Counted from the first letter of the stretch, positions 30,439 to 48,981 are shown. The stretch is DNA of 64,000 nucleotides from Thermoplasmata archaeon (GCA_034667725.1 JAXDQS010000003.1:224001-288000), one strand, 5' to 3'. Translations and numbers: made by a program. The notes: generated from the letters alone by a model not told the origin.

Positions 30439-30449
30439 CCGGCCCGCGC

Positions 30450-30689
30450 TTACTCGTGGGCGCCCTGGGGGCGCAACAGCAGGCCGACGAGGCCCATCAG
30501 GATGAACACGCCGGCGGTGGAGAGGATGCCGACGTCGGCGGGCGGGGTGGCGGGCCACAGGAGGCCGGCGACCGCGGCGACGTAGAACAGGACCCCGAAG
30601 GCGAGGCTCGCCAGCGACAGGACCTTCGACAGTTGCATGACGGGCGGGTTGCGCCAGGGATTCTTGACCCTTTTGGGTCGTTCGGCCAC
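30450..30689 (-). CDS. small 2-TM membrane protein
   Basis: 79 aa with two hydrophobic helices. Confidence 0.6.
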   Translation of the reverse strand: MAERPKRVKNPWRNPPVMQLSKVLSLASLAFGVLFYVAAVAGLLWPATPPADVGILSTAGVFILMGLVGLLLRPQGAHE

Positions 30690-30691
30690 CC

Positions 30692-31129
30692 TTAGGCGGT
30701 CGTCGGCTGCGCCGTGGCGGCCTGGACGGGCACCTGGCGGCGGCGGACCATCGCGACCCCGGCCATGGCCAGGCAGGCCACGACGGTCACGGAGACGATG
30801 ACGGCCGGCTTGAAGCCGCCCGGGACGATGGCGGTCGCGAGCGCAAGCAGCCCGACGAGGGCCGGGCTCAGGCCCAACGCGAACACCAGGTGCAGCGGGC
30901 GCCGCTCGGCGGGGCCGGGTCGGATGGCAGCCTGGAGGGCGAGGTAGCCGGGGGCCAGGAGGACGGCGGGGGCGCCGATCAGCAGCCGCAGGAGGTTGCC
31001 GGAGGGAAGGACGAGCGCGACCACGCCAGCCAGGAGCACGAGGCCAGCGGCGACCAGCAGGTCGGCAGGCCCGACGCGGCGGACGGTCGGGGTGGTGGGG
31101 TCAGCCGTGAAGCTGGGCGTGCGAGACAC
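30692..31129 (-). CDS. DUF1616-like membrane protein
   Basis: R...G.P.VL..PGY.L and ER....GLS motifs typical of archaeal glycosylation-locus proteins; start trimmed to GTG 31129. Confidence 0.65.
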   Translation of the reverse strand: MSRTPSFTADPTTPTVRRVGPADLLVAAGLVLLAGVVALVLPSGNLLRLLIGAPAVLLAPGYLALQAAIRPGPAERRPLHLVFALGLSPALVGLLALATAIVPGGFKPAVIVSVTVVACLAMAGVAMVRRRQVPVQAATAQPTTA

Positions 31130-31200
31130 GCCGGAGCATCTGCGCCCCAGGGCACAAGGGCCTTCCGCCAGCATTGTCCGCCACCCGTCCGTCCACTTCC

Positions 31201-31224
31201 AACGATGTTCCATGGGACGTTTAA
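31201..31224. promoter_or_regulatory. palindromic operator candidate abutting a TATA-like TTTAA
   Basis: ATGTTCCATGGGACGT-TTAA; a similar palindrome lies at 43826-43843. Confidence 0.45.
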
Positions 31225-31256
31225 GGCCCAATCTGCGACCTGGGGCTTGAATCGCC

Positions 31257-33008
31257 ATGTCGGCTCAACGTGTCAATCTGTGGCTTTGGTCGGTCGCCAT
31301 CCTGGCCGCCGTCTTCGTCGGTCTCCAGGCCCGCCTGGACGACCCGATGTCCTCCCCTGTCATCCCGGCAGAGGACCCCTACACGCACATGGCGCTCGTC
31401 CGCGAGCACTTGCGTGACGGGAGCCTCGACCCCCTCAACGAGCCTGGAAGCCTGTACCCGCCAGGCCTTCACGCCTTCCTTGCAGGCATCGTGGTCTTCA
31501 CCGGCTACGACCTCTACGACCTGGTCCGCTTCGGCCCCGTGCTGTTCGGCGCCATCGCCATCGTCGGCATGGCCGTCCTGTTGTGGCGCTTCGACTCCAA
31601 GGTCGCCGCCTTCGTGGGCGCGGTGGCCATCGCGATCATGCCCGAGGTCGTGTTCCGCAGCACCATGATGAGCCCGACGGCGCTCGACATCGCGATGCTG
31701 CCGTTCCTGTTCTACAGCCTGCTGGAGCTGATGCGCGGCCGCCTCGCCTGGCTGGCCGCAGCCATCCCGATCACGGCGTTCCTGCTGTTCGCGCACCCGT
31801 GGCTCATGGTCATCGTCGGCCTCACCGGCCTCGCCTTCATGGTCCTGACCTGGATCATGCCGTGGCGCTCCCGCGGCGCCGCCTTCGCGCCCGCCGGGTT
31901 CGCCGCCAGCCTCGCCATCGTCGGCAGCGCCCTCGCCCTTGCCCTCGTCGGCTGCGGCGGCGCCTGCGGCCCCGGCTTCCGCGACGTGCTGTCGCCGTCG
32001 GAGCTCAACGACCTCTGGCTCTTGGCGCCCGTCGTGCTCGGCGTCTCGCTCTTGCCCCTGGTCATCCTGCGCTTCGCCCCCCGCGCCTTCGACTGGGTCG
32101 GCAACCGCCGCCGCGCCACCCCGCCCGCCTGGTACCGCTTCGTCGTGAGCGGCATCCTGGTCGGCGCCCTGTTCGCCATCAGCCTGCCCGCCTTCGCCAA
32201 GGGCCTGCCCCAGTTCGTGGACCTGCCCGGCATGTTCGGCTGGCCCATCCTCGCCATGGCCGCCGTCGGCCTCGCCATCCTGCCGTTCGCCCGCAGCCCC
32301 GGCGCCCACCTTGGCGTCGCCATGGCGATCGCGACCTACCCCTTCGTGGTCCACAACCCGCTCGACTCCGAGTTCTGGCCGCACCGCACCGCCGTCTACC
32401 TCGGCGTGGCGCTCGCGATGCTGGCCGGTGTCGCCGGCGGCTTCCTGGCCCGCGTCACCTGCAAGGCCTTCGAGGACGCCACCTCGTCCGGCCGCAGCGG
32501 CGCCGAGGCCGAGACCGAGGCCGCCTACACGCTGCCCAAGACCCCCTCGGCCCGCCCGATGTTCGTCGTGCTGCCCGCCCTGATCGTGGCGGTCTGCCTG
32601 GCCGGCGGCGTGTACGCGGCCACCCCCGACCGCTACGACGAGGGCTGGTACCGCCTCTACAGCAACTGCGAGCTCAAGGGCCTGCAGGAGGTCGCCTCCT
32701 GGGTCGACGCCGAGCCGGAGGCGCTGGTGATCGCCGGCTCCTGGCAAGCCAAGCTGGTCTTGGCCGGTGTGGCCACCGACGCCTCGCGCATCTGGTTCAA
32801 GCCCGAGTTCTTCACCGACGCGGGCGAACGCGACGCCACCATGCGGCAACTGGCCAAGGACGGCCGGCCCTTGGTCGTCGTCGTGGACGGCCACCTCCCC
32901 GACGAGACGCCCGGCGCCGACCTCAGCTTCCTCGAGTCGATGCCCTACCAGAAGATCGGCTCCTGGTGCAGCAACACCAAGCCGATGGCGGCCTACACGG
33001 CGGTGTGA
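31257..33008 (+). CDS. GT-C-fold membrane glycosyltransferase (PMT/STT3-like)
   Basis: First external loop has AEDPYTH and YPPG.H; more than 10 TM segments; soluble C-terminal domain. Confidence 0.7.
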   Translation: MSAQRVNLWLWSVAILAAVFVGLQARLDDPMSSPVIPAEDPYTHMALVREHLRDGSLDPLNEPGSLYPPGLHAFLAGIVVFTGYDLYDLVRFGPVLFGAIAIVGMAVLLWRFDSKVAAFVGAVAIAIMPEVVFRSTMMSPTALDIAMLPFLFYSLLELMRGRLAWLAAAIPITAFLLFAHPWLMVIVGLTGLAFMVLTWIMPWRSRGAAFAPAGFAASLAIVGSALALALVGCGGACGPGFRDVLSPSELNDLWLLAPVVLGVSLLPLVILRFAPRAFDWVGNRRRATPPAWYRFVVSGILVGALFAISLPAFAKGLPQFVDLPGMFGWPILAMAAVGLAILPFARSPGAHLGVAMAIATYPFVVHNPLDSEFWPHRTAVYLGVALAMLAGVAGGFLARVTCKAFEDATSSGRSGAEAETEAAYTLPKTPSARPMFVVLPALIVAVCLAGGVYAATPDRYDEGWYRLYSNCELKGLQEVASWVDAEPEALVIAGSWQAKLVLAGVATDASRIWFKPEFFTDAGERDATMRQLAKDGRPLVVVVDGHLPDETPGADLSFLESMPYQKIGSWCSNTKPMAAYTAV

Positions 33009-33012
33009 CGCG

Positions 33013-33780
33013 ATGCAGCCCCCCACCCCGGCCGCCGCGCCGCACAAGCCCGGCCTCGTCACCATCGTCGTGCCCGCCAAGGACGAGGAGGCCGCCATCG
33101 GCGGCACCCTGCGCTCCCTCCCCGTCGAGACCCTGGCCGCCGCCGGCTTCCGCTCGGAGGTGTTCGTGCTCGACGGCCGCAGCAAGGACCGCACCGCCGA
33201 CATCGCCCGCGCATGGGGCGCGCAGGTCCTCACCGACCGCGTGCCCGGCAAGGCCGCCGCCCTCCGGGAGGCCCGCCCGCTGTTCGCCGGCGACTACGTC
33301 GTGATGCTGGACGCCGACGGCACCTACGCCCCGGACGCCATCCCGCGCATGGCCTCGCTCTTGGCCTGGGACCACGCCGACGTCGTCATGGGCCGCCGCA
33401 TCATCCAGGAAGGCGCCATGTCGGTGACGCACCGCTACGGCAACCGCGCCCTCAGCCTCGGCGCCACCATGCTCTACGGCCGCCGCTGCCCCGACCTGTG
33501 CACCGGCCTGTGGGGCTTCCGCCGCGACGCGTTCCAGAGCCTGCCCCTGACCAGCACCGGCTTCGAGCTGGAGGCCGAGCTGTTCGCGCTCTCCGCCCGC
33601 CTGGGCTACCGCATCGCCCACGTGCGCGCCGACTACATGCCGCGCCCCGGCGAGTCCAAGCTCAACGGCGCCCGCGACGGCCTGCGCATCGGCTGGACCC
33701 TGGTCCGCACCCGCTTCACCACGCTGCCCGAGGTCGGCCCCGCCGGCGGCAACCGCAACCCCCGGGAGGCGAGCGCGTGA
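33013..33780 (+). CDS. GT2 glycosyltransferase, polyprenol-phosphate sugar synthase (DPM1-like)
   Basis: IVVPAKDE, DG.S.D.T, GK..A, LDADGTY, D..TG..GF, FE.E.E. Confidence 0.88.
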   Translation: MQPPTPAAAPHKPGLVTIVVPAKDEEAAIGGTLRSLPVETLAAAGFRSEVFVLDGRSKDRTADIARAWGAQVLTDRVPGKAAALREARPLFAGDYVVMLDADGTYAPDAIPRMASLLAWDHADVVMGRRIIQEGAMSVTHRYGNRALSLGATMLYGRRCPDLCTGLWGFRRDAFQSLPLTSTGFELEAELFALSARLGYRIAHVRADYMPRPGESKLNGARDGLRIGWTLVRTRFTTLPEVGPAGGNRNPREASA

Positions 33781-35297
33781 AGGCAGCCGCCCTCGTCGCC
33801 ACCCTGTTCGTGGCGGCCGTCCTGCTGGCCGGCTGCGGCGACTCCGCCGGCGACACCGCGCTGCGGGAGAAGCTCAAGAAGCCCAGCCTGCAGATGCCGG
33901 GCGGCACCGACATGGTCAAGGTGCTCGGCACCCAGGACGGCGCCCTCCGCCTGCTGGGCGACCCCGACACCAGCGGCCTCGACGACTGGACCCCCGAGTT
34001 CGACTCGGTGCCCACCCTCGTCGACTTCGACGGCGACGGCCGCAGCGAGGTCGTCACCTACGGCGGCGACGGCCAGGTCCACGTCTTCCGCCAGGACGGC
34101 AAGGTGCTGGCGCGCCTGCCCACCACCGTCCCCGACGGCTGGTACGTGGACCGCTACCTCAACGGCGCCGACGCGGCCGTGATGCACCCCGGCGAGGCCC
34201 CCAGCATCGTCGTGGCCAGCCCGGCCGGCTACGTCGCGCTGTGGAAACTGCAAGGCAAGGGCGGCGACAGCCTGACCTTCGCGAAGGCATGGGAGCGCCG
34301 CATGGACGACTGCATCGACGGCGCCTCGATGGACGCCAGCGCCACGCTGGCCGACCTCGACGGCGACGGCGGCCGCGAAATCCTCGTCCAGGCGGAGGAG
34401 CGCGGCCTGTTCGCCCTCAACGCCGACGGCACGCTCCGCTGGGGCTGGTGCTGGGGCGGCGGCAACGCCGCGCCCATCGCCGAGGACCTCGACGGCGACG
34501 GCCGGCGCGAGGCCATCTTCGCCTCCGACGGCGGCGTCGTGTCGGTGTTCGACGGCGCCAAGGGCTTCCCGCTCTGGACCTTCGACGCCACCCAGTACGG
34601 CTTCACGCCCGCCAGCATCTCGGTGAGCCCCACGGTCGCCGAGCTCGACGGGGTCGCGCCCAAGGAGGTGCTGTTCACCGTCCGGCAGGCCGAGTCCGGC
34701 CGCCCCGACACCTTCGCCAGCCAGCACATGGGCATCTTCGCGGTCCACGGCCGGCAAGGCGCCGACCACGGCGCCGAGGCGCTCTGGGTCCGCAACCCGC
34801 AGTGGGCCAATCCCCTGAGCTACACCATGCTGCGCGCCGGCGACCTCGACGGCGACGGCATGACGGAAATCTACGGCATGGACTGGAACACCATCGGCCA
34901 CAACCCCGGCAACTGGGAGAACGTCGGCAAGCCGCACGTGTTCCGCCTGGACGCCAGCGGCCTCGAGGCCTGGGTCACCGAGCTGGAGACCTGGTGGTCG
35001 AACAAGGACATCGCGATCGCGGACCTGGACGGCGACGGCGTGCAGGACATCCTGGCCACCGGCCCCTACGAGGGCGCCGACGGCATCTGGGCCCTCCGGT
35101 CCAGCGACGGCCGCCCCACCGCGTTCGTGCCGACCCTCGGCTGGGAGCTGCTGCGCGGCCCCAGCGTCGCCGACCTCGACCGCGACGGCAAGGTGGACCT
35201 CGTCGTCCCCGTCAAGCCAGCCAACACCTCGGGCGAGGCGGGCGGCGTCGCGGTCATCCAGATCGAGGCCACCTACACGACGGGGGCTTGGCGATGA
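33777..35297 (+). CDS. lipoprotein with FG-GAP/VCBS (DxDGDG) beta-propeller
   Basis: LLAG|C lipobox; multiple D(F/L)DGDG repeats; paralogous to the next gene's N-terminal domain (shared WERR..DC, GG.A, ANPL.Y, DWNT.GH and W.NKD). Confidence 0.85.
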   Translation: MKAAALVATLFVAAVLLAGCGDSAGDTALREKLKKPSLQMPGGTDMVKVLGTQDGALRLLGDPDTSGLDDWTPEFDSVPTLVDFDGDGRSEVVTYGGDGQVHVFRQDGKVLARLPTTVPDGWYVDRYLNGADAAVMHPGEAPSIVVASPAGYVALWKLQGKGGDSLTFAKAWERRMDDCIDGASMDASATLADLDGDGGREILVQAEERGLFALNADGTLRWGWCWGGGNAAPIAEDLDGDGRREAIFASDGGVVSVFDGAKGFPLWTFDATQYGFTPASISVSPTVAELDGVAPKEVLFTVRQAESGRPDTFASQHMGIFAVHGRQGADHGAEALWVRNPQWANPLSYTMLRAGDLDGDGMTEIYGMDWNTIGHNPGNWENVGKPHVFRLDASGLEAWVTELETWWSNKDIAIADLDGDGVQDILATGPYEGADGIWALRSSDGRPTAFVPTLGWELLRGPSVADLDRDGKVDLVVPVKPANTSGEAGGVAVIQIEATYTTGAWR

Positions 35298-37720
35298 AGA
35301 TTCTCCCACGCGTGGCCGTCACCGGCCTCTTGGTGATGACGGCGTTCGCGATGGTGCCGCCCGCGTCGGCCGCCACCAACCTGGTGCGCAGCATGACCAA
35401 CACCACCTCGAACCCGGCCGTCGCGTTCGCGGCCTTCGACGGCAACCCGGCCAAGCTGTTCGACTTCGACAACGACGGCGACCTGGAGATCGTCGCCCAG
35501 AACGACAACAACTGGGCGTACATCTTCGACTCCCGCACGGGCGCCATGAAGGCGGAGCTGAAGACCAGCTTCCCGTCCGGCTGGGGCGCCCGCACCTTCA
35601 ACGGCCCCGAGGCCTACCGTGAGGGCGGCACCTCCTACCTGGTGCTGGTCAACTCGGCCGCCACCGTCACCAAGTACCGCTTCGACGCAAGCACCGCCGC
35701 CAACGCCAAGTGGACCTTCGTCAAGGAGTGGGAACGCCGCCTGTCCGACTGCTTCAGCGGGCCGGGCAGCGACTCCAAGCCCGTGATCCACGACCTCGAC
35801 CGCGACGGCCACTACGACATCATCGGCACCACCGAGGAGTCCGGCGTCTACGCCCTGCGCGGCGACGGCTCGCTGCTGTGGAAGACCTGCATCGGCGGCG
35901 GCAACGCCGACGCGGCCGTGGCCGACCTCAACCTGGACGGCTGGCCCGAGGTGGTGCATGTCTCCGACGGCGGCGTCGTGACCGCGCTCAACGGCCGCAC
36001 CGGCGGCCAGGTGTGGCGCTACGACGCCCGCGCCGCCTTCAGCCTCGGCTCCGGCAGCATCCCCGTCGGCCCCGGCATCGGCCAGCTCGACGGCATCGGC
36101 GGCCCCGACGTGGTCTTCGGCGCCCGCGACTCGCACGACCCCGACAACGTCGACGCCAACCATGCCTTGATCGCGGCCTTGGACTCCAACGGCAAGCTGC
36201 TGTGGGGCCGCCGCGACCCGAACGCCAACCCGCTCACCTACACCCACCCGATCGTCGCGGACGCCGACAACGACGGCCGCAACGAGGTCTACTGGGGCGA
36301 CTGGAACACCATGGGCCACAAGCCGCCCTTCGACGAGTCGCAGGCGTGGCAGCTCACCGGCCCCGCCAACTACTACCGCTACGACCACGCCGGCAACCTG
36401 GTGTGGCGCACCGAGCTTGCCACCTACTGGAGCAACAAGGACCTGGTGCTTGCCGACGTGGACGGCGACGGCGCCCAGGAGATCGTGGCCAACGGCCCCG
36501 GCTCCGGCGGCGACGGCCTGTGGTACCTCAACGCCGCCACCGGCGCCAAGGAGACCTTCGTCGGCATCAACCCCTACAAGGTCCAGCGCAACGCCATCGC
36601 CGGCGACCTGTGGAACACCAACACGCTGCAGCTCGTCGTCGAGGCCAGCCCGGCCGCCAGCGGCGCGCAGGGCCCGGCCATCCAGATCTACGACACCCAC
36701 GTCGGCTACAACGCGATGTGGCCGCACCTGCCCGACCCCGCTCCCCTCGGCGGCGGCGTGACGCCTCCGCCGCCTCCGCCGCCCCCGCCTCCGCCCCCCC
36801 CGCCGACCGGGCCGTTCGACGCCACCTTCACCGCCGTGCGCGGCAACGAATGGTGGGTCCAGGCCAACGTCGGCGCCACCGGCGAGGCCCTCGACAAAGT
36901 GGACGTCAGCCTGAACGGCGGCGCCTGGAAGCCCCTCACGAAGCAGTCGTGGGGCGGCTGGGGCGCGTCCTACCAGGTCGTGCAAGGCACCGTGGTGCAG
37001 CTGCGCGCCACCTCGACGGCCGGCTCGACCGACCCGAGCGCGTGCTACCAGTGGATCCCGCCCAGCAACGTGGACGCGACCCAAGTGGACTGCGAGAGCA
37101 CGCCCACCGAGCCGCCCCCGCCCCCGCCGCCCAGCGGCGCGTTCGACGCCGTCTACAGCCAAGTGCGCGGCAACGAGTGGTGGGAGCAGACGGTCGTCAG
37201 CGCCGCCGGCCACACCGTCGCCAAGGTGGACGTCCGCCTCAACGGCGGCGCCTGGAAGCCCCTGACGAAACAGTCGTGGGGCGGCTGGGCCGCGTCCTAC
37301 CAGGTCGTGCAAGGCACCGTCGTGCAGTTCCAGGCGACCTCCGGCACGGGCGCCATCGACCTCAGCGACTGCTACCAGTGGATTCCGCCCAGCAACGTGG
37401 ACGCCAGCAAGGTCGCGTGCAGCGGCGGCACCCCGCCCCCGCCACCCCCGCCGCCTCCGCCGCCGACCGGGACGTTCACCGCCTCGTTCGTGCCCAAGTC
37501 GCAAGGCAACGACTGGTGGGTCGAGGTGCAGGTCACCGCCAACCACCCCCTCGCCAAGGTGGAGGCCCAGGTCAACACCAACGGCTGGGTCGTCCTCGAC
37601 AAGCAGAGCTGGGGCAACTACGCCAAGTCGTTCTTCGTCGCCAACGGCAGCATCGTCAAGTTCCGCGCCACCGACACCGGCGGCGCCATGGTCGTGAGCG
37701 GCAGCTACCTGTGGGGATGA
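35294..37720 (+). CDS. secreted FG-GAP beta-propeller with poly-Pro linkers and three Trp-rich C-terminal repeats (expansin D2/CBM63-like)
   Basis: Signal peptide ASA-A; DxDxDG repeats; three GN(E/D)WW...W..L.KQSWG...ATS/D modules separated by poly-Pro. Confidence 0.8.
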   Translation: MKILPRVAVTGLLVMTAFAMVPPASAATNLVRSMTNTTSNPAVAFAAFDGNPAKLFDFDNDGDLEIVAQNDNNWAYIFDSRTGAMKAELKTSFPSGWGARTFNGPEAYREGGTSYLVLVNSAATVTKYRFDASTAANAKWTFVKEWERRLSDCFSGPGSDSKPVIHDLDRDGHYDIIGTTEESGVYALRGDGSLLWKTCIGGGNADAAVADLNLDGWPEVVHVSDGGVVTALNGRTGGQVWRYDARAAFSLGSGSIPVGPGIGQLDGIGGPDVVFGARDSHDPDNVDANHALIAALDSNGKLLWGRRDPNANPLTYTHPIVADADNDGRNEVYWGDWNTMGHKPPFDESQAWQLTGPANYYRYDHAGNLVWRTELATYWSNKDLVLADVDGDGAQEIVANGPGSGGDGLWYLNAATGAKETFVGINPYKVQRNAIAGDLWNTNTLQLVVEASPAASGAQGPAIQIYDTHVGYNAMWPHLPDPAPLGGGVTPPPPPPPPPPPPPPTGPFDATFTAVRGNEWWVQANVGATGEALDKVDVSLNGGAWKPLTKQSWGGWGASYQVVQGTVVQLRATSTAGSTDPSACYQWIPPSNVDATQVDCESTPTEPPPPPPPSGAFDAVYSQVRGNEWWEQTVVSAAGHTVAKVDVRLNGGAWKPLTKQSWGGWAASYQVVQGTVVQFQATSGTGAIDLSDCYQWIPPSNVDASKVACSGGTPPPPPPPPPPPTGTFTASFVPKSQGNDWWVEVQVTANHPLAKVEAQVNTNGWVVLDKQSWGNYAKSFFVANGSIVKFRATDTGGAMVVSGSYLWG

Positions 37721-39985: not shown

Positions 39986-40056
39986 TCTGGTTCGTTCGAG
40001 GCAAGCGGTGCCGCGCCAGCAAGTCCTTTCCGCGCGGACGGTTGCCGACGCTTGCG

Positions 40057-42956: not shown

Positions 42957-42960
42957 CGGC

Positions 42961-43776
42961 TCACTCCTGCTTCCGGCGGGCGATGGCGTAGGCCGCGGTG
43001 CCGAGGAGGCCGGCGGCGCCGACCGCGACGAAGGTCGGCAGGTCGGGGATGGTGGTGACCTCGACCTGCGCGCAGCCCTCGCTCTCGGAGTCGCCGAACA
43101 GCGCCGTCACCATGTAGGTGTAAGTGACGCCGTCCTCGGTGTCCGCGTCGATGTACGTACCGACGCCGGCGTCGAGGTTGGCGATGTGCTCGAAGTCGCC
43201 GTCGCCCTCGGCGCGGTACACCATGGTGCCGTTGCTGCCGGGGGCGGGCGTGAAGGTCAGCTCGACCGAGCCGTCGCTGCGGGCCAGCAGCACGAGGTCG
43301 GTGGGGCACGGCAGCTCCTCCGGGGGCGGGCACTGCTCGGAGCCCTCCTCGCACTCGGGCGCGCACTCCTCGACCCAGAACATCTTGTTCTTGGTGCTGT
43401 CCTTGCCGTCGTCCTCGGTGACCTCGAGGCGGTAGTGGCCGGCGGCCAGGGTGTAGGGGCCGCTCAGGAAGTGGAAGCCCTCCTCGTCGTCGCCCGTGTC
43501 CGCCGTCCATTCGCCGTCCAGCACCATCGTCATGTCGCCCGTCGGGGGCCAGGAGAAGATCTCGAACGAGCCGGTGCCGGCGTTCATGTTGAAGCCTTCG
43601 ATCCAGAAGTCCTCGCAGTCGACGTGCGGGATGTTGCGCGTCGGCGGGTCGGCGGTCTCCTCGTCGTGGACCTTGACGTCGCCCGCGTGGCCGTGGGCGC
43701 TGGTGGGCGTGGCAAAGAGGACGAAAGCCCCGGCGATGGCCAGGGACAGGACGGTGGCGGTGCGTGCATTGAGCAT
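42961..43776 (-). CDS. secreted FnIII-like surface protein with IPDLP-CTERM sorting signal
   Basis: Signal peptide; FnIII-like module (Y.VYR...Y.D...G.TY.Y.V.A....ES); C-terminus TTIPDLPT-TM-RRK, similar to PEF-CTERM. Confidence 0.8.
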   Translation of the reverse strand: MLNARTATVLSLAIAGAFVLFATPTSAHGHAGDVKVHDEETADPPTRNIPHVDCEDFWIEGFNMNAGTGSFEIFSWPPTGDMTMVLDGEWTADTGDDEEGFHFLSGPYTLAAGHYRLEVTEDDGKDSTKNKMFWVEECAPECEEGSEQCPPPEELPCPTDLVLLARSDGSVELTFTPAPGSNGTMVYRAEGDGDFEHIANLDAGVGTYIDADTEDGVTYTYMVTALFGDSESEGCAQVEVTTIPDLPTFVAVGAAGLLGTAAYAIARRKQE

Positions 43777-43825
43777 AAGGCTCACTGGAATGTCTCGCGC
43801 GGCGCTCCATTAGGCGTGTTGGGAC

Positions 43826-43843
43826 AACGATCCATGGCACGTT
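43826..43843. promoter_or_regulatory. palindromic operator candidate upstream of the sortase substrate
   Basis: AACGATCCATGGCACGTT; the right half matches 31210-31221 at 11/12. Confidence 0.45.
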
Positions 43844-43868
43844 CCTCGAAGCTACTGCCGGGTCGCCG

Positions 43869-43968
43869 CCTAGGGGCTTCGCCCCTAGGACCCCCTGGCG
43901 CGTCACGGCGCTGCGCGCGCGACGCACCGAACGCCTTCGCTTCGCGTTCGGCGCGCGCCGACGCGCGA
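43869..43968. repeat. double hairpin (REP-like or terminator)
   Basis: CCTAGGGGC-TTC-GCCCCTAGG, then a long imperfect stem (GCGCGTC/GACGCGC, CCGAACGC/GCGTTCGG). Confidence 0.55.
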
Positions 43969-43978
43969 CCCTTCCCCA

Positions 43979-44968
43979 TCATTGCCGCGTCGCCGCCCGC
44001 AGCCTTGCCAACTCCGCCGTGGGGTCCGGCGCCGCGCGCGGCCCGAGGATGCGGACGGCGTCAGCGGGTGCGATGGCGGGCTCCGGCGTTGCCTCCAGCA
44101 GCCGCAGCGTCGCCTGCCGCACCTTCATGGTGGGGTGCCGCAGCAGCCGGGCCTGCGCCTGGCCTCGGCTCCGCGCCAGGTACAAGAGGTGGTCGACCAC
44201 GCCGTCGCCGGCCGGCCCCGCCAGCCGCAGCGCGGTCGGCACGGCGTCGAGCAGGGCCGCGCGCGCGGCCCGCCACGCCTGCGCGGCGTCGCGCGGGGGC
44301 GCGTGCGCGAGGTCCACCTTGAAGGCGAAGGCCCACTCGAACCACGCCCGCCGCGCCTCGACGGCGGGGATCGGGGGCAGCCGGGCCCACAGCTCCTGGC
44401 GCTCGCGCTGGCTGGGCGCGAACGCGCCCGCGCCCAGGAGGTGCGCGTCCAAGGCGGCAAGCAGCGCCTTGGCCGCCTGGATGCGGCGCGCGTGCGGGTC
44501 GGCGTTCGGCGTCACCAAGAGGAGGCCGGCGGCGCGGTTGGCCACCAGCCGGAGCGCCTCGCCGGGCGCCAGGTCCTGGGGGCCGCGCACTGGGATGCGG
44601 TCCAACAGCGGTTCGCCCCACACGGTCTTGCCCCGGAGCGCGGTCTCGTACCAGAAGATGGACGGGGCGACGCGCGGCAGGCGGGCGGCGGCGACGGGCG
44701 CGAGGTCGATGTGCAGGCCCAGCTCGGCCTCGAGCTGGCGCGCGAGGGGGCCGTAGCGCGCGGGCGCGCCCAGCCGCCGGACGGCGACGAAGTCGTAGTC
44801 GTTCTGCGGGACGCCGTCGAGCACCGTGCCCTCGCCGCGCGCGAACCCGCCCGTCAGCACCAGGCTGCGGAGGGCGGGGTCGCGGGCGCGGACCGCCTCG
44901 GCGACGCGGGCGAGGTCGCCTTCGACCCGCGCCACGACCTCCGGCGTGTCCCGGAGGGTGTAGCTCAT
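43979..44968 (-). CDS. Pol-beta-superfamily nucleotidyltransferase-like protein
   Basis: LVLTGGFARGEG...NDYD motif, then a helical C-terminal domain; ATGA coupled to the upstream gene. Confidence 0.75.
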   Translation of the reverse strand: MSYTLRDTPEVVARVEGDLARVAEAVRARDPALRSLVLTGGFARGEGTVLDGVPQNDYDFVAVRRLGAPARYGPLARQLEAELGLHIDLAPVAAARLPRVAPSIFWYETALRGKTVWGEPLLDRIPVRGPQDLAPGEALRLVANRAAGLLLVTPNADPHARRIQAAKALLAALDAHLLGAGAFAPSQRERQELWARLPPIPAVEARRAWFEWAFAFKVDLAHAPPRDAAQAWRAARAALLDAVPTALRLAGPAGDGVVDHLLYLARSRGQAQARLLRHPTMKVRQATLRLLEATPEPAIAPADAVRILGPRAAPDPTAELARLRAATRQ

Positions 44969-46230
44969 GCCTGCTTGCGGGCCGAGGCGGGGGCCACTTG
45001 GATGGGGGCCCGGAGCAGCGACTCGCCCTCGTTGGTGTCGGGGACGGGCAGGCGGAGCATGTCGCACAGGGTGGGGAACACGTCCACGAGGCTGCGGTTG
45101 CCGACGGGGTGGGGCGGGACCCGGCCGGGGCTCGACGAGATGACCATGGCGCCCATGCCCTCCTCGGACTTGTCGAGGTAGCCGTGCATGCCGACGATCT
45201 TCGAGTCGGTGACGTGGAAGTAGTCGGGCCAGTACATCACACCCGGGTTCGCGATGAGCATCCGGTCGCCCCAGCGCCGGTCCATCGGGATGCGGCGCGC
45301 CTTGCGCTCGTCGTCGGACAGCACCCGGCTGCCGGCGATGCCGGGCAGGACGGCCTCGACGGCGTCGCGGCCCTTGGGGGTCAGGTACCACAGCACCGCG
45401 ATGGTCGAGTTGACGAAGACCACGTAATCCTCGGCTTCCTTGGCGCCGCTGGCCCGGAGCGCCTTGAGGACGTTGACCTCCTGGCGGACGGGGCCCATGC
45501 CGTGGTCGCCGCAGATGAACAGGTCCCACGAGTCGTAGCCGGCGGACAGGGCGGCGTGGATGCTGGCGAACTTCTGGTCGAGCTCGCGCAGGTGGCCTTT
45601 CTGCATCTTGTCGCTGAAGGGGCCGTCGACGTGGCCGCGCTGGTCGCACACCGAGAACTGGGCGACGTAGAGGTCGTAGGGGGCCGAGGCGCGCAGCTCG
45701 CGCACCAGGATCTCGTGGATCTCGTTGTCGACGCCGGAGATGGGGTGGGCCAGGTAACGGAAGCGGAGGTCGTTCTCGCGGCACAGGTCGAAGATCGACT
45801 TGGCGCCCAAGGCACCGGGCTCGTACATCGGCTTCATGTCCTCGCACATGGCGAAGCTGGGCAGGAACTTCGGCGGGATCCAGGCGGGGTCGGTGTGGAA
45901 CGCGCCGGTCTTCATCTTGGTGATCTTCTCGACCACCTTGCGCGTCGGCCAGAACAGCTTCTTGGGACGCACCAGCGCCCGCAGCGGGCCGAGCTTGCGG
46001 ACCCACTTGAACGGGCTCTCCTCGGGGTTGAACACGAACTGGCTGAAGTTGCCGGAGGTGTCGGGGTAGCGGCCGGAGAACAGCACCGTGCGCTGGGCGA
46101 AGCCGGGCGGGCTCTCGAACGAGCCCGTGAGGGACTTCTGGGCAAGGCCGTGCAAAAACGGCATCGTGTCGGGGCGGACGTAGTCGGCCCTGCCGGCATC
46201 CATGATGATGAAGACGGTCGCGTGGGTCAT
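44965..46230 (-). CDS. alkaline phosphatase superfamily (nucleotide pyrophosphatase/phosphodiesterase-like)
   Basis: IMDA, D..GH..G, GDHGM and GMHGY metal-ligand motifs. Confidence 0.82.
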   Translation of the reverse strand: MTHATVFIIMDAGRADYVRPDTMPFLHGLAQKSLTGSFESPPGFAQRTVLFSGRYPDTSGNFSQFVFNPEESPFKWVRKLGPLRALVRPKKLFWPTRKVVEKITKMKTGAFHTDPAWIPPKFLPSFAMCEDMKPMYEPGALGAKSIFDLCRENDLRFRYLAHPISGVDNEIHEILVRELRASAPYDLYVAQFSVCDQRGHVDGPFSDKMQKGHLRELDQKFASIHAALSAGYDSWDLFICGDHGMGPVRQEVNVLKALRASGAKEAEDYVVFVNSTIAVLWYLTPKGRDAVEAVLPGIAGSRVLSDDERKARRIPMDRRWGDRMLIANPGVMYWPDYFHVTDSKIVGMHGYLDKSEEGMGAMVISSSPGRVPPHPVGNRSLVDVFPTLCDMLRLPVPDTNEGESLLRAPIQVAPASARKQA

Positions 46231-47186
46231 GTGGGGGTCTCCTTGGGGGTCTTGCGGCGGCTGCGCCCGAGGGCGAGCCCGTGCACATACTGGACGAGGA
46301 AGGCGAGGTCGAAGGCGGGGGAGGCGGCGACCCCGCGCACGAGGTGCAGGGCCGGCAGGCTGCGGCGGCGGCGCACGGCGCGCCGCACGGCCGGGACCCA
46401 GAGGGCGCCGGCCAAGAGGGGCAAGCCGAGGATGGGCAGCCAGACGGCAACCAGGGCGCAAGCGGCAAGCCCGCCGCCCCACGCGAGCACCTCGCGCTGG
46501 ACGCCGAGCTCGCTGGCGTAGGCGCCGCAGCCGTAGCCCTCGCGGACGTTCTTGCGCATCTCCTGGCGCAAGGTGGCGACGTCGTGGTGGCGGACCACCA
46601 TGCGCGGGTTGTAGACGGCGGTGTAGCCCTCGGCGGCGGCCCGTTGCGCCAGCAGCAGGTCCTCGGCGGCGTTGGCCCACGGGTCGAACGGGTGGCGCTC
46701 CAGGATGGTGCGCTTGTAGCCGGCGGCGACGTTGGAGGCGAACCGTAGCGGCTCGGGGGTCTCGCCGTCGGGGAAGTGGTAGCGCAGGCCGCGCACGGCG
46801 GCGGCCGTCGTCCAGCGCTCGGGCGAGTGGATCTGCGGGCCGAACGCCATGTCGGCCTTGGCCAGCGAGGACGCCATCTCGGCGGTCCAGTGCTCGTCGG
46901 GCTCGGCGTCGGCGGACAGGAACGCGATCCAGTCCGATTTGGCCATCGCGACGCCGCGGTTGCGGGCCTCGCCGATCGGGAGGCAGGTGTCGGCCATGCT
47001 CAGGCGCAGCGGGACCGGGAACTCGGTCTGGGCCTGGCGCAGGATGGCGCCGGTGCGGTCGGTGCTGGCGGCGTCGACCACGAGGACCTCGAAGTCGCGC
47101 ATCCGTTGGCGGGCGAGCGCTGCGAGGGTGGCGCCGATGTTGCGCTCCTCATTCAGCGTCAGCACCACGACCGACAGGCGCGGCAT
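46227..47186 (-). CDS. GT2 glycosyltransferase with C-terminal TM segments
   Basis: LSVVV.TLNEE, VVDA.STD.T, ARN.G, FLSAD, AED. Confidence 0.88.
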   Translation of the reverse strand: MPRLSVVVLTLNEERNIGATLAALARQRMRDFEVLVVDAASTDRTGAILRQAQTEFPVPLRLSMADTCLPIGEARNRGVAMAKSDWIAFLSADAEPDEHWTAEMASSLAKADMAFGPQIHSPERWTTAAAVRGLRYHFPDGETPEPLRFASNVAAGYKRTILERHPFDPWANAAEDLLLAQRAAAEGYTAVYNPRMVVRHHDVATLRQEMRKNVREGYGCGAYASELGVQREVLAWGGGLAACALVAVWLPILGLPLLAGALWVPAVRRAVRRRRSLPALHLVRGVAASPAFDLAFLVQYVHGLALGRSRRKTPKETPT

Positions 47187-48435
47187 CCGGCATCACCTCC
47201 TGCGGGCGGGCTTCGCGGGTTTCTTGGTGCAGGCGCCAGGTGGCGTAGGCGGCGAACGGCACGTTGGCCAACAGCCAGGCGAACGCGGCGCCGGTGGTGC
47301 CGGACGAGCCGGCGAGGGTGGGGGCAAGCACGAGGAGCATGGCGAGCGTGAGGGTGGGCAGCAGCACCATGGGGGCGGTGTGCTCGCGGGCGCGCAGCAC
47401 CGACAGCGCGAGGCTGGCGGGGGCCGCAAGCAGGGCGCTGGCGGCCAGCACCACGAGCGCCGGCGCGGCGTCGGCGTAGCCGGGCCCGAAGACGCCGAGC
47501 AGCCACGGCGCCAGCAGCGCGAGGCCGGCGGCGCCGGGCAGGACGATCCACGCCTGCTGCCGCAGCGCCCGCCGGAGGGTGGCGGGGTCGGGCTCGCGCG
47601 CGACCAGTTGCCGCAGCGCGCTGCGGGCGATGGCGGAGCACGCCAGCAGCAGCATCGAGGCCAGGGTCCAGGCCATGGCGAAGTGCGCCGCGGCCTCGGG
47701 GCCCTGCACCGCGAGCAGGATGGGGGTCAAGAGCAGGCCCGGCAGGAACTCGGCGGCGGTGCCGGCCATGTTCCGCACGGCGCTTGCGACGAAGGTGCGG
47801 CGCGAGACGGGCGTCCCGCCCGCGTGCTCGATGCGGCGCTGGATGCGGTTGCCGACGACGACGGCGCACAGCACGCCGATGGCCCAGGCCAGCGGGATGA
47901 CCAACGGCAGCACCAAGGCGAGGGCGACGGCGGCGACGATGCGCACGACGGCGCCGCCCAGGTTGCGCGCGGCGGCCTGGCCGGCGCGGCCGCCGGACAG
48001 CAGCACGGCGTCCTGGAGCCAGGCGTAGAGCAGCAGCATCCCGATGAGGGCGACGAGCAGCCATTCGGTGCGGCCCAGCTCGGGCCACGCGCCGGCGGAG
48101 GTGCCCCACAGGGCCAGCACGCCCCAGACGGCGAGCAGGAAGGCGCCGCCGAGGCCGAGGGCGAAGCCGAACAGGTTGCCCTCGCGGCCCGTGGACGGCA
48201 GGTAGCGCAACAGCGCGGTGTCGAGGCCGCCCTTGGCGAGCACCGCGACCAAGGTGCCGAGGGCGATGACCGCGGAGCCGACGCCGACCTCACGGGCGGG
48301 GAGTTGCAGCACCCGGGTCGCCACCAGCCAGAACACGAGTCCCGCCGCTGCCGTGGCGACCGTGTTCAGCATGAGGTAGGCGGCGTCGCGGTGCTGCGCC
48401 TGGGCCCAGGCCTGGCGGAGTCTCGGCAGGGTCAT
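47149..48435 (-). CDS. Wzx/MOP-family oligosaccharide flippase
   Basis: About 12 TM segments; G.VFW..A.R, GLD.AL.RYLP, VFG..Y. Confidence 0.8.
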   Translation of the reverse strand: MTLPRLRQAWAQAQHRDAAYLMLNTVATAAAGLVFWLVATRVLQLPAREVGVGSAVIALGTLVAVLAKGGLDTALLRYLPSTGREGNLFGFALGLGGAFLLAVWGVLALWGTSAGAWPELGRTEWLLVALIGMLLLYAWLQDAVLLSGGRAGQAAARNLGGAVVRIVAAVALALVLPLVIPLAWAIGVLCAVVVGNRIQRRIEHAGGTPVSRRTFVASAVRNMAGTAAEFLPGLLLTPILLAVQGPEAAAHFAMAWTLASMLLLACSAIARSALRQLVAREPDPATLRRALRQQAWIVLPGAAGLALLAPWLLGVFGPGYADAAPALVVLAASALLAAPASLALSVLRAREHTAPMVLLPTLTLAMLLVLAPTLAGSSGTTGAAFAWLLANVPFAAYATWRLHQETREARPQEVMPDAAPVGRGADAE

Positions 48436-48444
48436 CCGGCACGC

Positions 48445-48981
48445 TCAGGGAGAGGCCGGGACGGCTTCGTTCAGGACGCGCTGCGCGGCCGGGCTCAGGG
48501 CGTACAGCGTGCCGCCGGGGCCTTGGCGCTCGAGGTCGCCGGCCTGCAGCATCCGGGTGAGGTGGTAGCCGAGGGTGCTGTCGGCGCAGCCGAGGCGGCG
48601 GCGCAGCTCGGTGCGCGCCAGCGGCCCGGCCAATAGCAACTGGGCGATCTGGCGGGGCACCGGGCGGGCCAGGCGCGCCATGCCGGGGCGGAGCTGGGGC
48701 TCGTGGCCGTCGGTGACGAAGAACCGGCTGAACCGGCCGTCCTTGACCTCCACCAGGAGGCCTTGGCGGGCCAGGCGGTCGACGTGGTGGCGGAGCTGGC
48801 CGTTGGAGTGCAGGCTGGCGGCGCGCTCCAGGCCGCGGAAGTGGATGCCGGGGCTGGCGCGCACGATGTGGCAGAGCTTGACGCCGACGGGGGCTTCGGC
48901 GGGGGCCTGCATGGGGGCGGACATCCACGATGGGCCGGTCGCGGCCGAGGCAAGGGCGGGGCGGGGCTCGTCCATGGTCAT
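48445..48981 (-). CDS. tandem winged-HTH transcriptional regulator
   Basis: PGIHFRGL...GQLRHH..RL and a second HTH ELRRRLG...STL.YHL; start uncertain. Confidence 0.8.
   Translation of the reverse strand: MTMDEPRPALASAATGPSWMSAPMQAPAEAPVGVKLCHIVRASPGIHFRGLERAASLHSNGQLRHHVDRLARQGLLVEVKDGRFSRFFVTDGHEPQLRPGMARLARPVPRQIAQLLLAGPLARTELRRRLGCADSTLGYHLTRMLQAGDLERQGPGGTLYALSPAAQRVLNEAVPASP

What the first reader, a model, noticed from the sequence alone, without database searches (positions are those of the whole stretch)
30692..48981. ~18 kb archaeal sortase-coupled surface-glycan/matrix system
Seen: two convergent arms. The left arm is DUF1616-like (divergent), GT-C, DPM1-like GT2, two FG-GAP propellers, GT4 and GT4. 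The right arm is wHTH, flippase, GT2, phosphodiesterase, NTase, a CTERM-tagged FnIII protein and a sortase. A hybrid PAS kinase lies between them. Known: bacterial PEP-CTERM/exosortase genes sit in exopolysaccharide loci linked to floc and biofilm formation, and archaeosortases process PGF/PEF-CTERM glycoproteins. Inference: this is an archaeal counterpart that builds a lipid-linked glycan, flips it, transfers it via GT-C to a dedicated sortase-anchored protein and binds or remodels it with secreted lectin-like propellers. I do not know a described system with this gene set.
Basis: partly seen in the sequence, partly recalled or inferred. Interest (0 to 1): 0.82.

Follow-up and report, generated by a model that had tools for sequence, protein, structure and literature searches.

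The report
Archaeal sortase embedded in surface-sugar locus
In about half of one order of uncultured soil archaea, a conserved 18-kb cluster of sugar-chain-building genes keeps company with a protein-anchoring 'sortase' and its tagged surface protein, an archaeal parallel to bacterial exosortase/slime loci that could help find out what such sortases attach proteins to.

Summary

The sortase passes the exosortase/archaeosortase signature and keeps Cys, Arg and His. Archaeosortase C is its best subfamily match, but at 61 bits it is below the curated cut-off of 100. Its cognate tag, (I/V)P-x-(F/L)-P-(T/S/G) plus helix plus RRK, passes no curated CTERM model.

- **Co-occurrence:** among 38 genomes of the order, ArtC-like sortases (20), the NTase-like gene (21) and the GT-C gene (20) fall in almost the same genomes. 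None of 159 other genomes of the class has the NTase-like gene.
- **Linkage:** in 14 genomes, about 16 being assessable, a sortase lies beside the glycan modules. It comes from two different clades at two different positions.
- **Not the core pathway:** AglB lies on another contig and occurs in 32 of 38 genomes.

- The kinase is not conserved.
- The tagged protein is not dedicated; about five proteins in this genome share the tag.
- The arms can separate.
- The GT-C most likely uses dolichyl-phosphate-hexose, not an oligosaccharide.

Function is inferred only. I rate it a new variant of a known kind, of moderately high interest. AI notes from this scan report archaeosortase-glycan associations on other DNA.

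The parts
30692..31258 (-). g01: short 4-TM DUF1616-like membrane protein, divergent from the left arm. The start may be 31129.
   Evidence: Pfam PF07760, 39.8 bits against a cut-off of 31.6. Four TM-like segments. In relatives it heads a DUF1616, tagged protein, clade-B sortase operon.
31257..33008 (+). g02: GT-C-fold membrane glycosyltransferase (PMT_2/RgtA/ArnT-like).
   Evidence: No Pfam hit at threshold. Atlas feature score 0.99 and structure TM 0.58-0.67 to GT-C clusters. Eleven TM-like segments. Invariant E39-D40-P41 after TM1 in 13 orthologues.
33013..33780 (+). g03: soluble DPM1/AglJ-like GT2, a likely dolichyl-phosphate hexose synthase.
   Evidence: PF00535. TIGR04182 AglJ 151 bits and NF041391 103 bits, both below cut-off. 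Best solved relative is Dol-P-Man synthase 5mlz.
33777..35297 (+). g04: FG-GAP beta-propeller lipoprotein (lipobox LAGC).
   Evidence: PF13517 77 bits, PF01839. N-terminal signal and lipobox.
35294..37720 (+). g05: secreted FG-GAP propeller with about three C-terminal repeats resembling the expansin C-terminal (CBM63) domain.
   Evidence: PF13517. NF041144 43 bits at residues 731-801, below the cut-off of 100. A paralogue passes Pfam Expansin_C. Internal repeats seen by tblastn.
37717..38892 (+). g06: GT4 glycosyltransferase.
   Evidence: PF00534, PF13439. No NCBIfam equivalog reached.
38861..39985 (+). g07: GT4 glycosyltransferase.
   Evidence: PF13692, PF00534, PF13439.
40057..42087 (+). g08: hybrid PAS-PAS-HisKA-HATPase-REC kinase and last gene of the left arm. 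It is not a conserved part of the locus.
   Evidence: Pfam. Absent between the arms in G017, G024, G043 and G044. Smaller PAS kinases precede clade-B sortases in G001, G002 and G009.
42084..42956 (-). g09: ArtC-like archaeosortase, clade A.
   Evidence: TIGR04178 48 bits (cut-off 23); TIGR03762 61.4 bits (cut-off 100). Eight TM-like segments. Invariant C190, N232, R235 and H255. Clade support 100/98.
42961..43776 (-). g10: secreted two-domain FnIII-like protein carrying the sorting tag TTIPDLPTF, a hydrophobic helix and RRKQE.
   Evidence: Translation. Orthologue alignment. Model pLDDT 76 with two beta-sandwiches. Foldseek hits to tandem FnIII.
43979..44968 (-). g11: cytoplasmic pol-beta-fold nucleotidyltransferase fused to a HEPN-like helical domain. 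It belongs to an orphan family.
   Evidence: Model pLDDT 89.9. Foldseek hits to AadA, ANT, LinB and MNT. VIA Z 13.4 to 7uy4. Invariant G40, G45, D57-x-D59 and D88. 223 clusters, named only 'hypothetical protein' or a generic nucleotidyltransferase where named at all, none with a Pfam domain.
44965..46230 (-). g12: cytoplasmic alkaline-phosphatase-superfamily phosphodiesterase/pyrophosphatase.
   Evidence: PF01663 54 bits over the full length. No signal peptide or TM segment. 60-75% identity in most orthologues, 52% and 40% in the two most distant. Missing from the G005 copy.
46227..47186 (-). g13: GT2 glycosyltransferase.
   Evidence: PF00535 80 bits. No equivalog reached.
47149..48435 (-). 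g14: MOP-superfamily (Wzx/Polysacc_synt-like) flippase.
   Evidence: No Pfam hit. Atlas features 0.99 and structure TM 0.81-0.88 to Polysacc_synt/MurJ/MatE clusters. Ten TM-like segments.
48445..48981 (-). g15: winged-helix regulator (HVO_0163 N-terminal HTH plus HTH_20) and first gene of the right arm.
   Evidence: PF24266 46 bits, PF12840. Conserved at the head of the arm in G017, G024, G026, G044, G004 and G005.

Best explanation
This is an accessory cell-surface glycoconjugate system found only in one order of soil Thermoplasmatota. It is built from three co-inherited modules.

(1) A cytoplasmic assembly and export module: the wHTH regulator, the MOP flippase, the GT2 and the two GT4s. An NTase/HEPN-like enzyme and an alkaline-phosphatase-family phosphodiesterase probably add or trim a phosphodiester-linked substituent. 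This module builds an oligosaccharide on dolichyl phosphate and flips it outward.

(2) An outside-face module like AglD/AglS, GtrB/GtrC or Ppm1/Pmt. The DPM1-like GT2 makes Dol-P-hexose. The GT-C enzyme uses it outside the membrane to add hexose to the glycan or to Ser/Thr-rich stalks of surface proteins. The 4-TM DUF1616-like protein is possibly the carrier flippase. A lipoprotein and a secreted FG-GAP propeller, the latter with CBM63-like repeats, bind or remodel the glycan.

(3) An exchangeable cassette of an ArtC-like archaeosortase and an (I/V)PxFP-tagged protein. By analogy with ArtA, the sortase cleaves the tag and fixes FnIII-type proteins to the membrane surface within this glycan coat.

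What is shown: gene identities at family or fold level, co-location and co-inheritance. What is inferred: every biochemical step, the acceptor of the glycan and the anchor made by the sortase.
For: Gene identities.

Operon packing with overlapping stops and starts, and a gap of about 200 nt before the cassette.

Synteny of both arms: G017, G024, G044, G008 and G004. Metagenome contig L084 repeats the whole right arm plus sortase. L093 repeats the left arm plus sortase.

Phyletic pattern in 38 genomes of the order: ArtC-like sortase 20 (E<=2e-70), NTase-like 21, GT-C 20. These are the same genomes except G027 and G009. 16 genomes lack all three, and a 17th (G027) lacks only the sortase. The genomes lacking all three include same-genus G006 and G007 (94 and 92% complete), G041 and G015. 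0 of 159 genomes of other orders of the class have the NTase-like gene.

Empty site: G006 and G007 keep the TauE/62-aa flank but not the locus. G004 and G005 carry the locus there.

Two sortase clades (100/98 and 98/100 support) occupy two different slots of the same locus. Clade A sits after the NTase gene. Clade B sits after DUF1616 or after a PAS kinase. This argues for selection on the association rather than inherited adjacency.

Tagged proteins lie next to sortases of both clades, and T/S/P-rich stalks precede clade-B tags.

Catalytic Cys/Arg/His are invariant.

AglB is elsewhere and near-universal, so this is not the core N-glycosylation pathway.
Against:
- No priming phosphoglycosyltransferase, polymerase or dedicated oligosaccharyltransferase is in the locus, so the end product is unknown.
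- Linkage is not obligatory. The two other ArtC-like sortases of this genome (contigs C1 and C10), G004's clade-B sortase, G028's clade-A sortase and metagenome loci L086, L089 and L092 have no module genes within 4-10 kb.
- The arms are on separate contigs in G005 and G012.
- G005 lacks the phosphodiesterase.
- The genomes are kin, so co-occurrence counts overstate independence; there are about three or four independent within-genus contrasts.
- The flippase and GT-C assignments rest on language-model features and predicted-structure likeness, not on a curated HMM.
Confidence: 0.6

Rival explanations
1. The locus is an accessory Agl-type N-glycan pathway, comparable to the second, low-salt pathway of Haloferax. 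It assembles a lipid-linked oligosaccharide that the distant AglB transfers to many surface proteins. The GT-C adds a final hexose as AglS does. The sortase cassette is only a frequent neighbour, because both serve the envelope, and has no specific chemical link to the glycan.
For: The enzyme logic matches AglJ/AglD-like GT2, MOP flippase and GT-C. AglB is present elsewhere in the genome. No transferase for the flipped glycan is in the locus. Sortase paralogues work outside the locus. A published precedent is an AglB subfamily annotated as 'archaeosortase A system-associated' (PMC9128505).
Against: No gene reaches an Agl equivalog cut-off (AglJ 151 against 325; AglG 23 against 440). Within the order, ArtC-like sortases occur only in genomes that carry the modules, 20 of 20. 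Two sortase clades were recruited independently into the locus. g10 has no conserved N-X-S/T sequon.
Confidence: 0.22
2. It is a free exopolysaccharide or capsule locus, a matrix polymer as in bacterial PEP-CTERM/EPS systems. The FG-GAP/CBM proteins would be matrix-processing enzymes and the sortase substrates would be matrix-bound proteins.
For: It has several GTs, a Wzx-like flippase, secreted propellers resembling polysaccharide-lyase propellers (PF25292, PF21348 hits), CBM63-like repeats and a kinase as in PrsK/PrsR systems.
Against: No Wzy-type polymerase, chain-length regulator, priming transferase or synthase-type GT2 with TM pores is in the locus. The GTs are few (GT2, GT2, GT4, GT4), which fits a short glycan better.
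Confidence: 0.1
3. It is a chance juxtaposition of unrelated envelope operons with no functional unit.
For: Module order is shuffled between genomes, the arms can be split, and the kinase varies.
Against: Three markers co-occur almost perfectly across 38 genomes with several within-genus losses. The same flank has an empty site. The association recurs with two sortase clades and in independent metagenome contigs.
Confidence: 0.05

Closest known systems
Archaeosortase C / PEF-CTERM system (TIGR03762 / TIGR03024; Haft, Payne & Selengut 2012, as cited in PMC5244752 and PMC6098224)
   Same: ArtC is the best-scoring subfamily for all three non-ArtA sortases of this genome. The sortase has 8 TM-like segments with invariant Cys/Arg/His. 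The tag is a P-x-F-type motif followed by a helix and a basic tail, and some relatives read IPEFPT. JGI labels some homologues 'archaeosortase C (PEF-CTERM variant)'.
   Different: Scores of 50-61 bits are below the curated cut-off of 100. The best of 31 family members reaches E 3e-22. Tags fail PEF-CTERM (13.7 against 23) and PEFG-CTERM (15.9 against 25), and this window's tag (IPDLPTF) matches neither model. The family splits into two deep clades, is restricted to one Thermoplasmatota order and is embedded in a glycan locus.
Bacterial PEP-CTERM/exosortase (XrtA/EpsH) exopolysaccharide loci and other exosortase systems with dedicated glycosyltransferases (XrtG, XrtP, XrtY)
   Same: A sortase of the same superfamily sits within a glycan-biosynthesis locus together with GT2/GT4 enzymes, a flippase and a sensor kinase, and is co-inherited with it. 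The GT4s give weak hits to PEP-CTERM/XrtA-system glycosyltransferase models stp1-3.
   Different: It is in a different domain of life, with a different sortase subfamily and tag. None of the XrtA-system equivalogs is reached. No polymerase or priming enzyme is present. It has a Dol-P-hexose/GT-C module, FG-GAP propellers and an NTase/phosphodiesterase pair, none of which I know to be part of those systems (own knowledge).
Haloferax volcanii Agl pathway steps AglJ/AglD (Dol-P-hexose GT2), AglR (flippase), AglS (Dol-P-mannose-dependent GT-C-like transferase), and the analogous GtrA/GtrB/GtrC and Ppm1/Pmt systems
   Same: A DPM1-like GT2 next to a GT-C enzyme, plus a MOP flippase and a small 4-TM protein, reproduces the logic of three-component outside-face glycosylation.
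   Different: No orthology: all Agl equivalog scores are far below cut-off. AglB is not in the locus. The small membrane protein is DUF1616-like, not GtrA. The locus is accessory (about 20 of 38 genomes) whereas AglB is in 32 of 38.
ArtA / PGF-CTERM lipid anchoring of haloarchaeal S-layer glycoprotein, and the 'archaeosortase A system-associated' AglB subfamily
   Same: It is a precedent for an archaeosortase that cleaves a C-terminal tripartite tag and leaves a lipid-anchored glycoprotein, and for co-inheritance of an archaeosortase with a GT-C enzyme (PMC6098224; PMC9128505).
   Different: This genome's true ArtA is a separate gene on contig C10 (TIGR04125, 123 bits against a cut-off of 75). 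The in-locus sortase is not ArtA, and the GT-C is not STT3.

Membership tests
Exosortase/archaeosortase superfamily (TIGR04178 signature) | Signature HMM at or above the curated cut-off (23 bits) | tested here: met
   48 bits for g09. All 31 aligned family members match.
Exosortase/archaeosortase superfamily (TIGR04178 signature) | Polytopic membrane protein with conserved Cys, Arg and His | tested here: met
   Eight TM-like segments. C190, R235 and H255 (plus N232, G259) are invariant in 31 sequences including ArtA.
Archaeosortase C (TIGR03762) | Subfamily HMM at or above the curated cut-off (100 bits) | tested here: not met
   61.4 bits. Paralogues score 50-57 bits. The best E-value among 31 members is 3e-22.
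Archaeosortase C (TIGR03762) | Cognate PEF-CTERM sorting domain (TIGR03024, cut-off 23 bits) on substrates | tested here: not met
   The g10 tail gives no PEF-CTERM hit at E<=10. An IPEFPTA tail of a relative scores 13.7 bits, and 15.9 for PEFG-CTERM (cut-off 25).
Archaeosortase A (TIGR04125) | Subfamily HMM at or above the cut-off (75 bits) | tested here: not met
   ArtA is not among g09's hits at E<=0.01. The genome's ArtA is L075:8773-10056, 123.5 bits.
Bacterial PEP-CTERM/XrtA EPS system | XrtA-type exosortase and PEP-CTERM tags | tested here: not met
   XrtA (TIGR03109) is not among g09's hits, and its paralogues score about 28-30 bits against a cut-off of 208. The tags are (I/V)PxFP, not PEP.
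Bacterial PEP-CTERM/XrtA EPS system | Wzy-type polymerase, chain-length regulator and priming transferase in the locus | tested here: not met
   None is found among the 15 genes or the flanks by Pfam or NCBIfam.
Bacterial PEP-CTERM/XrtA EPS system | PrsK/PrsR-type two-component regulators | tested here: inconclusive
   A hybrid PAS kinase is present, but PrsK is not among its 25 best NCBIfam hits and only 25 were listed. The kinase is not conserved in the locus.
Agl N-glycosylation cluster (Haloferax type) | AglB (STT3) in or beside the cluster | tested here: not met
   STT3 is on contig C10:64662-65921, not C3. In relatives it is also on other contigs.
Agl N-glycosylation cluster (Haloferax type) | Orthology to named Agl enzymes (equivalog cut-offs) | tested here: not met
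   AglJ 151 against 325; Dol-P hexose transferase 103 against 375; AglG 23.5 against 440; Agl16 47 against 575.
GT-C glycosyltransferases (PMT_2/ArnT/RgtA-like) | Curated HMM match | tested here: not met
   No Pfam or NCBIfam hit at threshold. PTPS_related scores 9 bits and DUF6044 6 bits. A profile against PDB sequences finds nothing.
GT-C glycosyltransferases (PMT_2/ArnT/RgtA-like) | GT-C fold, with many TM helices and an acidic motif in the first outer loop | tested here: met
   Atlas structure TM 0.58-0.67 to PMT_2/RgtA-like clusters. Eleven TM-like segments. E39-D40 is invariant in 13 orthologues.
MOP flippases (Polysacc_synt/Wzx) | Curated HMM match or fold match | tested here: inconclusive
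   No Pfam hit. Atlas features score 0.99, and predicted-structure TM is 0.81-0.88 to Polysacc_synt/MurJ/MatE clusters.
Pol-beta-fold nucleotidyltransferases with a HEPN-like domain (ANT/AadA architecture) | NTase fold with G-[GS]...D-x-D and a third carboxylate | tested here: met
   VIA Z 13.4, 212 residues aligned, rmsd 3.7 to 7uy4. Foldseek probability 1.0 to AadA, ANT and MNT. G40, G45, D57, D59 and D88 are invariant. Pfam NTP_transf_2 scores only 13.8 bits.

The most novel reading that the evidence does not exclude
The lipid-linked glycan made and flipped by this locus is itself the acceptor of the sortase reaction. The ArtC-like archaeosortase would cleave the (I/V)PxFP tag and join the protein to the locus-specific dolichol-linked (phospho)glycan. 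That would make the tagged proteins glycolipid-anchored. It would parallel T9SS/A-LPS or sortase/lipid II and would identify, for the first time, the acceptor of an exo/archaeosortase other than ArtA. Independent recruitment of two sortase clades into the same glycan locus, and the strict co-inheritance, would then reflect a shared substrate.
Probability: 0.2. Interest if true: 0.85.

Novelty: new variant of a known kind. Interest (0 to 1): 0.64.

Why it matters
What exosortases and most archaeosortases attach their substrates to is still unknown. The bacterial link to exopolysaccharide loci has stayed a genomic correlation since 2006.

Here the same kind of correlation appears in archaea, and in an unusually clean form:
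- The system is present or absent as a unit at a conserved chromosomal site.
- Two different sortase clades have been recruited to the same glycan modules.
- Each genome carries only a handful of tagged substrates.

That narrows the search for the acceptor to one small gene set. The set includes an orphan NTase/HEPN-like enzyme and a cytoplasmic phosphodiesterase, which hint at a phosphodiester-modified glycan. The finding also adds an unnamed ArtC-like sortase group and an unrecognised CTERM tag to the catalogue, and it describes the likely envelope of an uncultured, GC-rich soil Thermoplasmatota order.

Tried and rejected
- The search for related loci with the single sortase in genome contigs found nothing. 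I used the genome search instead.
- Profile searches of the flippase, GT-C and NTase alignments against PDB sequences gave nothing useful. phmmer of the phosphodiesterase against PDB gave nothing.
- Haft et al. 2012 (PMC3256604) is not held. Its content is cited only through other papers.
- No paper in the library holds both 'archaeosortase' and 'Thermoplasmatota'.
- I considered and rejected a histidine-brace reading of the mature N-terminus of g10, because the His after the signal peptide is not conserved.
- I considered and rejected 'dedicated one-to-one sortase/substrate pair'.
- I considered the kinase as a core component and rejected it for lack of conservation.
- I looked for a remnant clade-B cassette downstream of DUF1616 in this window. 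None is there; the next genes are a 62-aa ORF and TauE.
- Complex prediction was not used, because an enzyme-substrate pair is a poor case for it.

Full report
**1. What is there**

The window is 71-75% GC, so raw ORF lists are full of shadow frames. I called genes from third-position GC and codon-phase plots. Between 30692 and 48981 there are 15 genes.

- A divergent short DUF1616-like membrane protein (30692-31258, minus strand).
- A plus-strand operon (31257-42087) of a GT-C-like protein, a DPM1-like GT2, two FG-GAP proteins, two GT4s and a PAS hybrid kinase.
- A convergent minus-strand operon (48981-42084) of a wHTH, a flippase, a GT2, a phosphodiesterase, an NTase-like protein, a tagged protein and a sortase.

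Adjacent genes mostly overlap by 4-38 nt. The two larger gaps are about 60-70 nt before the kinase and about 200 nt before the tagged-protein/sortase pair. The stops of the kinase and the sortase overlap. The flanks are unrelated: TauE, Band 7, a CDP-archaeol-synthase-like gene and G1P dehydrogenase on the left, and ergothioneine genes egtD/C/B on the right.

**2. Gene identities**

Pfam and NCBIfam support nine of the labels directly: DUF1616, both GT2s, both FG-GAP proteins, both GT4s, the PAS-HisKA-HATPase-REC kinase, PF01663, the HVO_0163-type wHTH and the exosortase/archaeosortase signature. Four genes had no family hit and needed other evidence.

- **'Flippase'.** It has ten TM-like segments. 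Language-model features and its predicted structure (TM 0.81-0.88) place it among Polysacc_synt/MurJ/MatE clusters.
- **'GT-C'.** It has eleven TM-like segments and TM 0.58-0.67 to PMT_2/RgtA-like clusters. An E-D-P motif just after TM1 is invariant in 13 orthologues.
- **'NTase'.** With a 16-sequence alignment it folds at pLDDT 90 into a minimal nucleotidyltransferase domain plus a HEPN-like helical domain. This is the architecture of ANT(3'')(9)/AadA (VIA Z 13.4; Foldseek probability 1.0). The G...G...DxD and third-Asp motifs are invariant. Its family has 223 clusters. Where sources name them, it is 'hypothetical protein' or a generic nucleotidyltransferase label, and none has a Pfam domain. 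Named sources are almost all Thermoplasmatota MAGs.
- **Tagged protein.** It has a signal peptide, two FnIII-like beta-sandwiches and the tail TTIPDLPTF-helix-RRKQE.

Three further points bear on localisation and function.
- The phosphodiesterase and the NTase-like protein lack signal peptides and are cytoplasmic.
- The first propeller has a lipobox and the second a signal peptide.
- The last 300 residues of the second propeller are about three repeats with weak likeness to the expansin C-terminal/CBM63 domain. A paralogue passes Pfam Expansin_C.

**3. The sortase and its tag**

g09 passes the family signature TIGR04178 (48 bits against a cut-off of 23). Its best subfamily, archaeosortase C, scores only 61 bits against a curated cut-off of 100. 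C190, R235 and H255 are invariant across 31 homologues.

The genome has four family members. One is a true ArtA (123 bits against 75). The other three are sub-threshold ArtC-like genes.

A maximum-likelihood tree splits the ArtC-like sequences into two clades.
- Clade A (100/98 support) holds g09 and most of the metagenome homologues sampled.
- Clade B (98/100 support) holds the genome's two other copies and the in-locus sortases of five same-genus genomes.

Proteins encoded next to sortases of both clades end in (I/V)-P-x-(F/L)-P-(T/S/G), a hydrophobic helix and RR(K). No curated CTERM model accepts these tails. The best scores are 15.9 bits for PEFG-CTERM (cut-off 25) and 13.7 for PEF-CTERM (cut-off 23), for an IPEFPTA tail. 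g10's own tail gets no hit to either PEF-type model; its one listed match, LPXTG_anchor at 14.7 bits, is below its cut-off of 15.9.

The genome encodes at least five proteins with the clade-A-type tail: g10, a 64%-identical paralogue on C1, two on C5 and one on C7. Two more carry the clade-B-type tail. The system is therefore not a one-to-one pair.

**4. Conservation**

The order holds 38 species-level genomes.

- Strict orthologues of g09 (49% identity or more) occur in 9.
- With a family profile, ArtC-like sortases (E <= 2e-70) occur in 20.
- The NTase-like gene occurs in 21.
- The GT-C gene occurs in 20.

The sets coincide except for G027 (no sortase found; 86% complete, 310 contigs) and G009 (no GT-C found; 76% complete). 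Sixteen genomes lack all three markers, and G027 lacks only the sortase. The genomes lacking all three include same-genus G006 and G007 (94 and 92% complete), G041 in genus g6 and G015 in genus g4. That gives several within-genus contrasts.

No genome of the other orders of the class (0 of 159) has the NTase-like gene. Only one of them has a weak hit to the sortase profile, and that profile also contained an ArtA row.

At the conserved TauE/62-aa flank, G004 and G005 carry the locus, inverted relative to this genome. G006 and G007 have the flank but no locus.

AglB is on another contig here and is present in 32 of 38 genomes. The locus is thus an accessory unit that is gained or lost as a whole. 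It is not the core N-glycosylation cluster.

**5. Synteny**

tblastn of the 15 proteins against fetched loci shows three shuffled modules.
- M1: wHTH, flippase, GT2, phosphodiesterase, NTase.
- M2: DUF1616, divergent from GT-C, GT2, FG-GAP, FG-GAP, GT4, GT4.
- M3: tagged protein(s) plus sortase.

Clade-A cassettes follow the NTase gene in G000, G017, G024, G026 and G044, and in metagenome contig L084. In G043 the contig ends before M1 and the cassette sits beside the two GT4 genes.

Clade-B cassettes follow DUF1616 in G003, G005, G008, G011 and G012, and in metagenome contig L093. In G001, G002 and G009 they follow a PAS kinase plus an HTH_10 regulator beside the modules.

That makes 14 genomes with a sortase beside the modules. 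The counter-examples are:
- G004 and G028;
- this genome's C1 and C10 copies;
- metagenome loci L086, L089 and L092, which have no module genes within 10 kb.

M1 and M2 are on different contigs in G005 and G012. G005's M1 lacks the phosphodiesterase. The hybrid kinase g08 is absent between the arms in G017, G024, G043 and G044.

**6. Interpretation**

A DPM1-like GT2 beside a PMT_2/ArnT-like GT-C is the hallmark of outside-face transfer of a single sugar from a polyprenyl-phosphate carrier. Known examples are AglD/AglS, GtrB/GtrC and Ppm1/Pmt (established knowledge). The T/S/P-rich stalks just before clade-B tags are plausible O-glycosylation targets.

GT2, two GT4s and a MOP flippase, with no polymerase or priming enzyme, fit a short dolichol-linked glycan. 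The cytoplasmic NTase/HEPN-like enzyme and the phosphodiesterase suggest a phosphodiester-type modification, but this is inference only.

By analogy with ArtA (PMC6098224), the sortase cleaves the tag and leaves a membrane-anchored protein. Whether the anchor or acceptor is the product of the locus is the most interesting open reading; I put it at about 0.2.

**7. Comparison and novelty**

Several pieces are already known:
- sortase-glycan coupling in bacteria (PEP-CTERM/EpsH), where NCBIfam also carries XrtG-, XrtP- and XrtY-associated glycosyltransferase models;
- in archaea, an AglB subfamily annotated as ArtA-system-associated (PMC9128505);
- ArtC/PEF-CTERM as a named system (PMC5244752, PMC9723798).

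I found no paper linking archaeosortases with Thermoplasmatota, and none describing an archaeosortase embedded in such a gene set.

Earlier AI notes of this scan report archaeosortase-glycan associations on other DNA: an ArtC-partnered sugar-aminoacylation operon and a Bathyarchaeia module. I did not test them.

I therefore class this as a new variant of a known kind:
- an unnamed pair of ArtC-like clades with an unrecognised tag;
- co-inherited with, and usually embedded in, an order-specific glycan locus that contains two orphan enzymes.

**8. Limits**

Everything functional is inferred. The genomes are MAGs of one order and are not independent. The flippase and GT-C calls rest on predicted structures. 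Two tools that could have added context or expression evidence were unavailable.

Noticed in passing
window 49162-52140: Ergothioneine biosynthesis genes lie directly right of the locus: egtD (Methyltransf_33, 360 bits), an egtC-like amidotransferase and egtB (FGE-sulfatase plus DinB_2). egtD was not found in five same-genus genomes.
   Followed up: partly
window 36800-37720 (C-terminal part of g05); own genome contigs C1, C2, C3, C5 and C10: A repeat of about 100 aa, weakly like the expansin C-terminal/CBM63 domain, occurs about three times in g05 and at about eight to ten other places in the genome. These include two FG-GAP proteins near the C1 clade-B sortase.
   Followed up: partly
L073:12872-13906 (own genome C10): The tagged protein (VPSFPTA tail) two genes (about 2.4 kb) from the C10 clade-B sortase is an Ice_binding (PF11999, 194 bits) domain protein.
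   Followed up: no
L082:5674-7724 (G005:C2): In this same-genus genome the right arm lacks the phosphodiesterase. The NTase and GT2 genes are only about 80 nt apart.
   Followed up: no
window 29071-30638; L080, L081, L082, L083: The locus sits at a conserved site beside TauE and a 62-aa membrane ORF. It is inverted relative to that flank in G004 and G005. It is absent at that flank in G006 and G007.
   Followed up: yes
window 20178-21785 and 22267-24120: Two paralogous proteins of about 535 and 617 aa end in a shared Cys/His-rich motif (..FPFTC..H.D..ATG.G.CHAPDP).
   Followed up: no
window 12359-14053(-) and 53922-54941(+); L075:5979-7940: Further secreted proteins end in a hydrophobic helix plus an RRR tail without the (I/V)PxFP motif. 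They may be substrates of the genome's true ArtA, or simple TM anchors.
   Followed up: no
G011:C31:20827-21717, G010:C48:1222-2091, G008:C28:18333-19199: The sortase matches in these three genomes carry one in-frame stop each (TGA, TGA, TAG) in the search output. They could be pseudogenes, assembly errors or alignments running past the gene end.
   Followed up: no
L062:12496-14648, L060:15905-18059, L071:8792-10938: In three same-genus genomes a small PAS histidine kinase and an HTH_10 regulator sit directly upstream of the clade-B sortase, with malate synthase next to them.
   Followed up: partly
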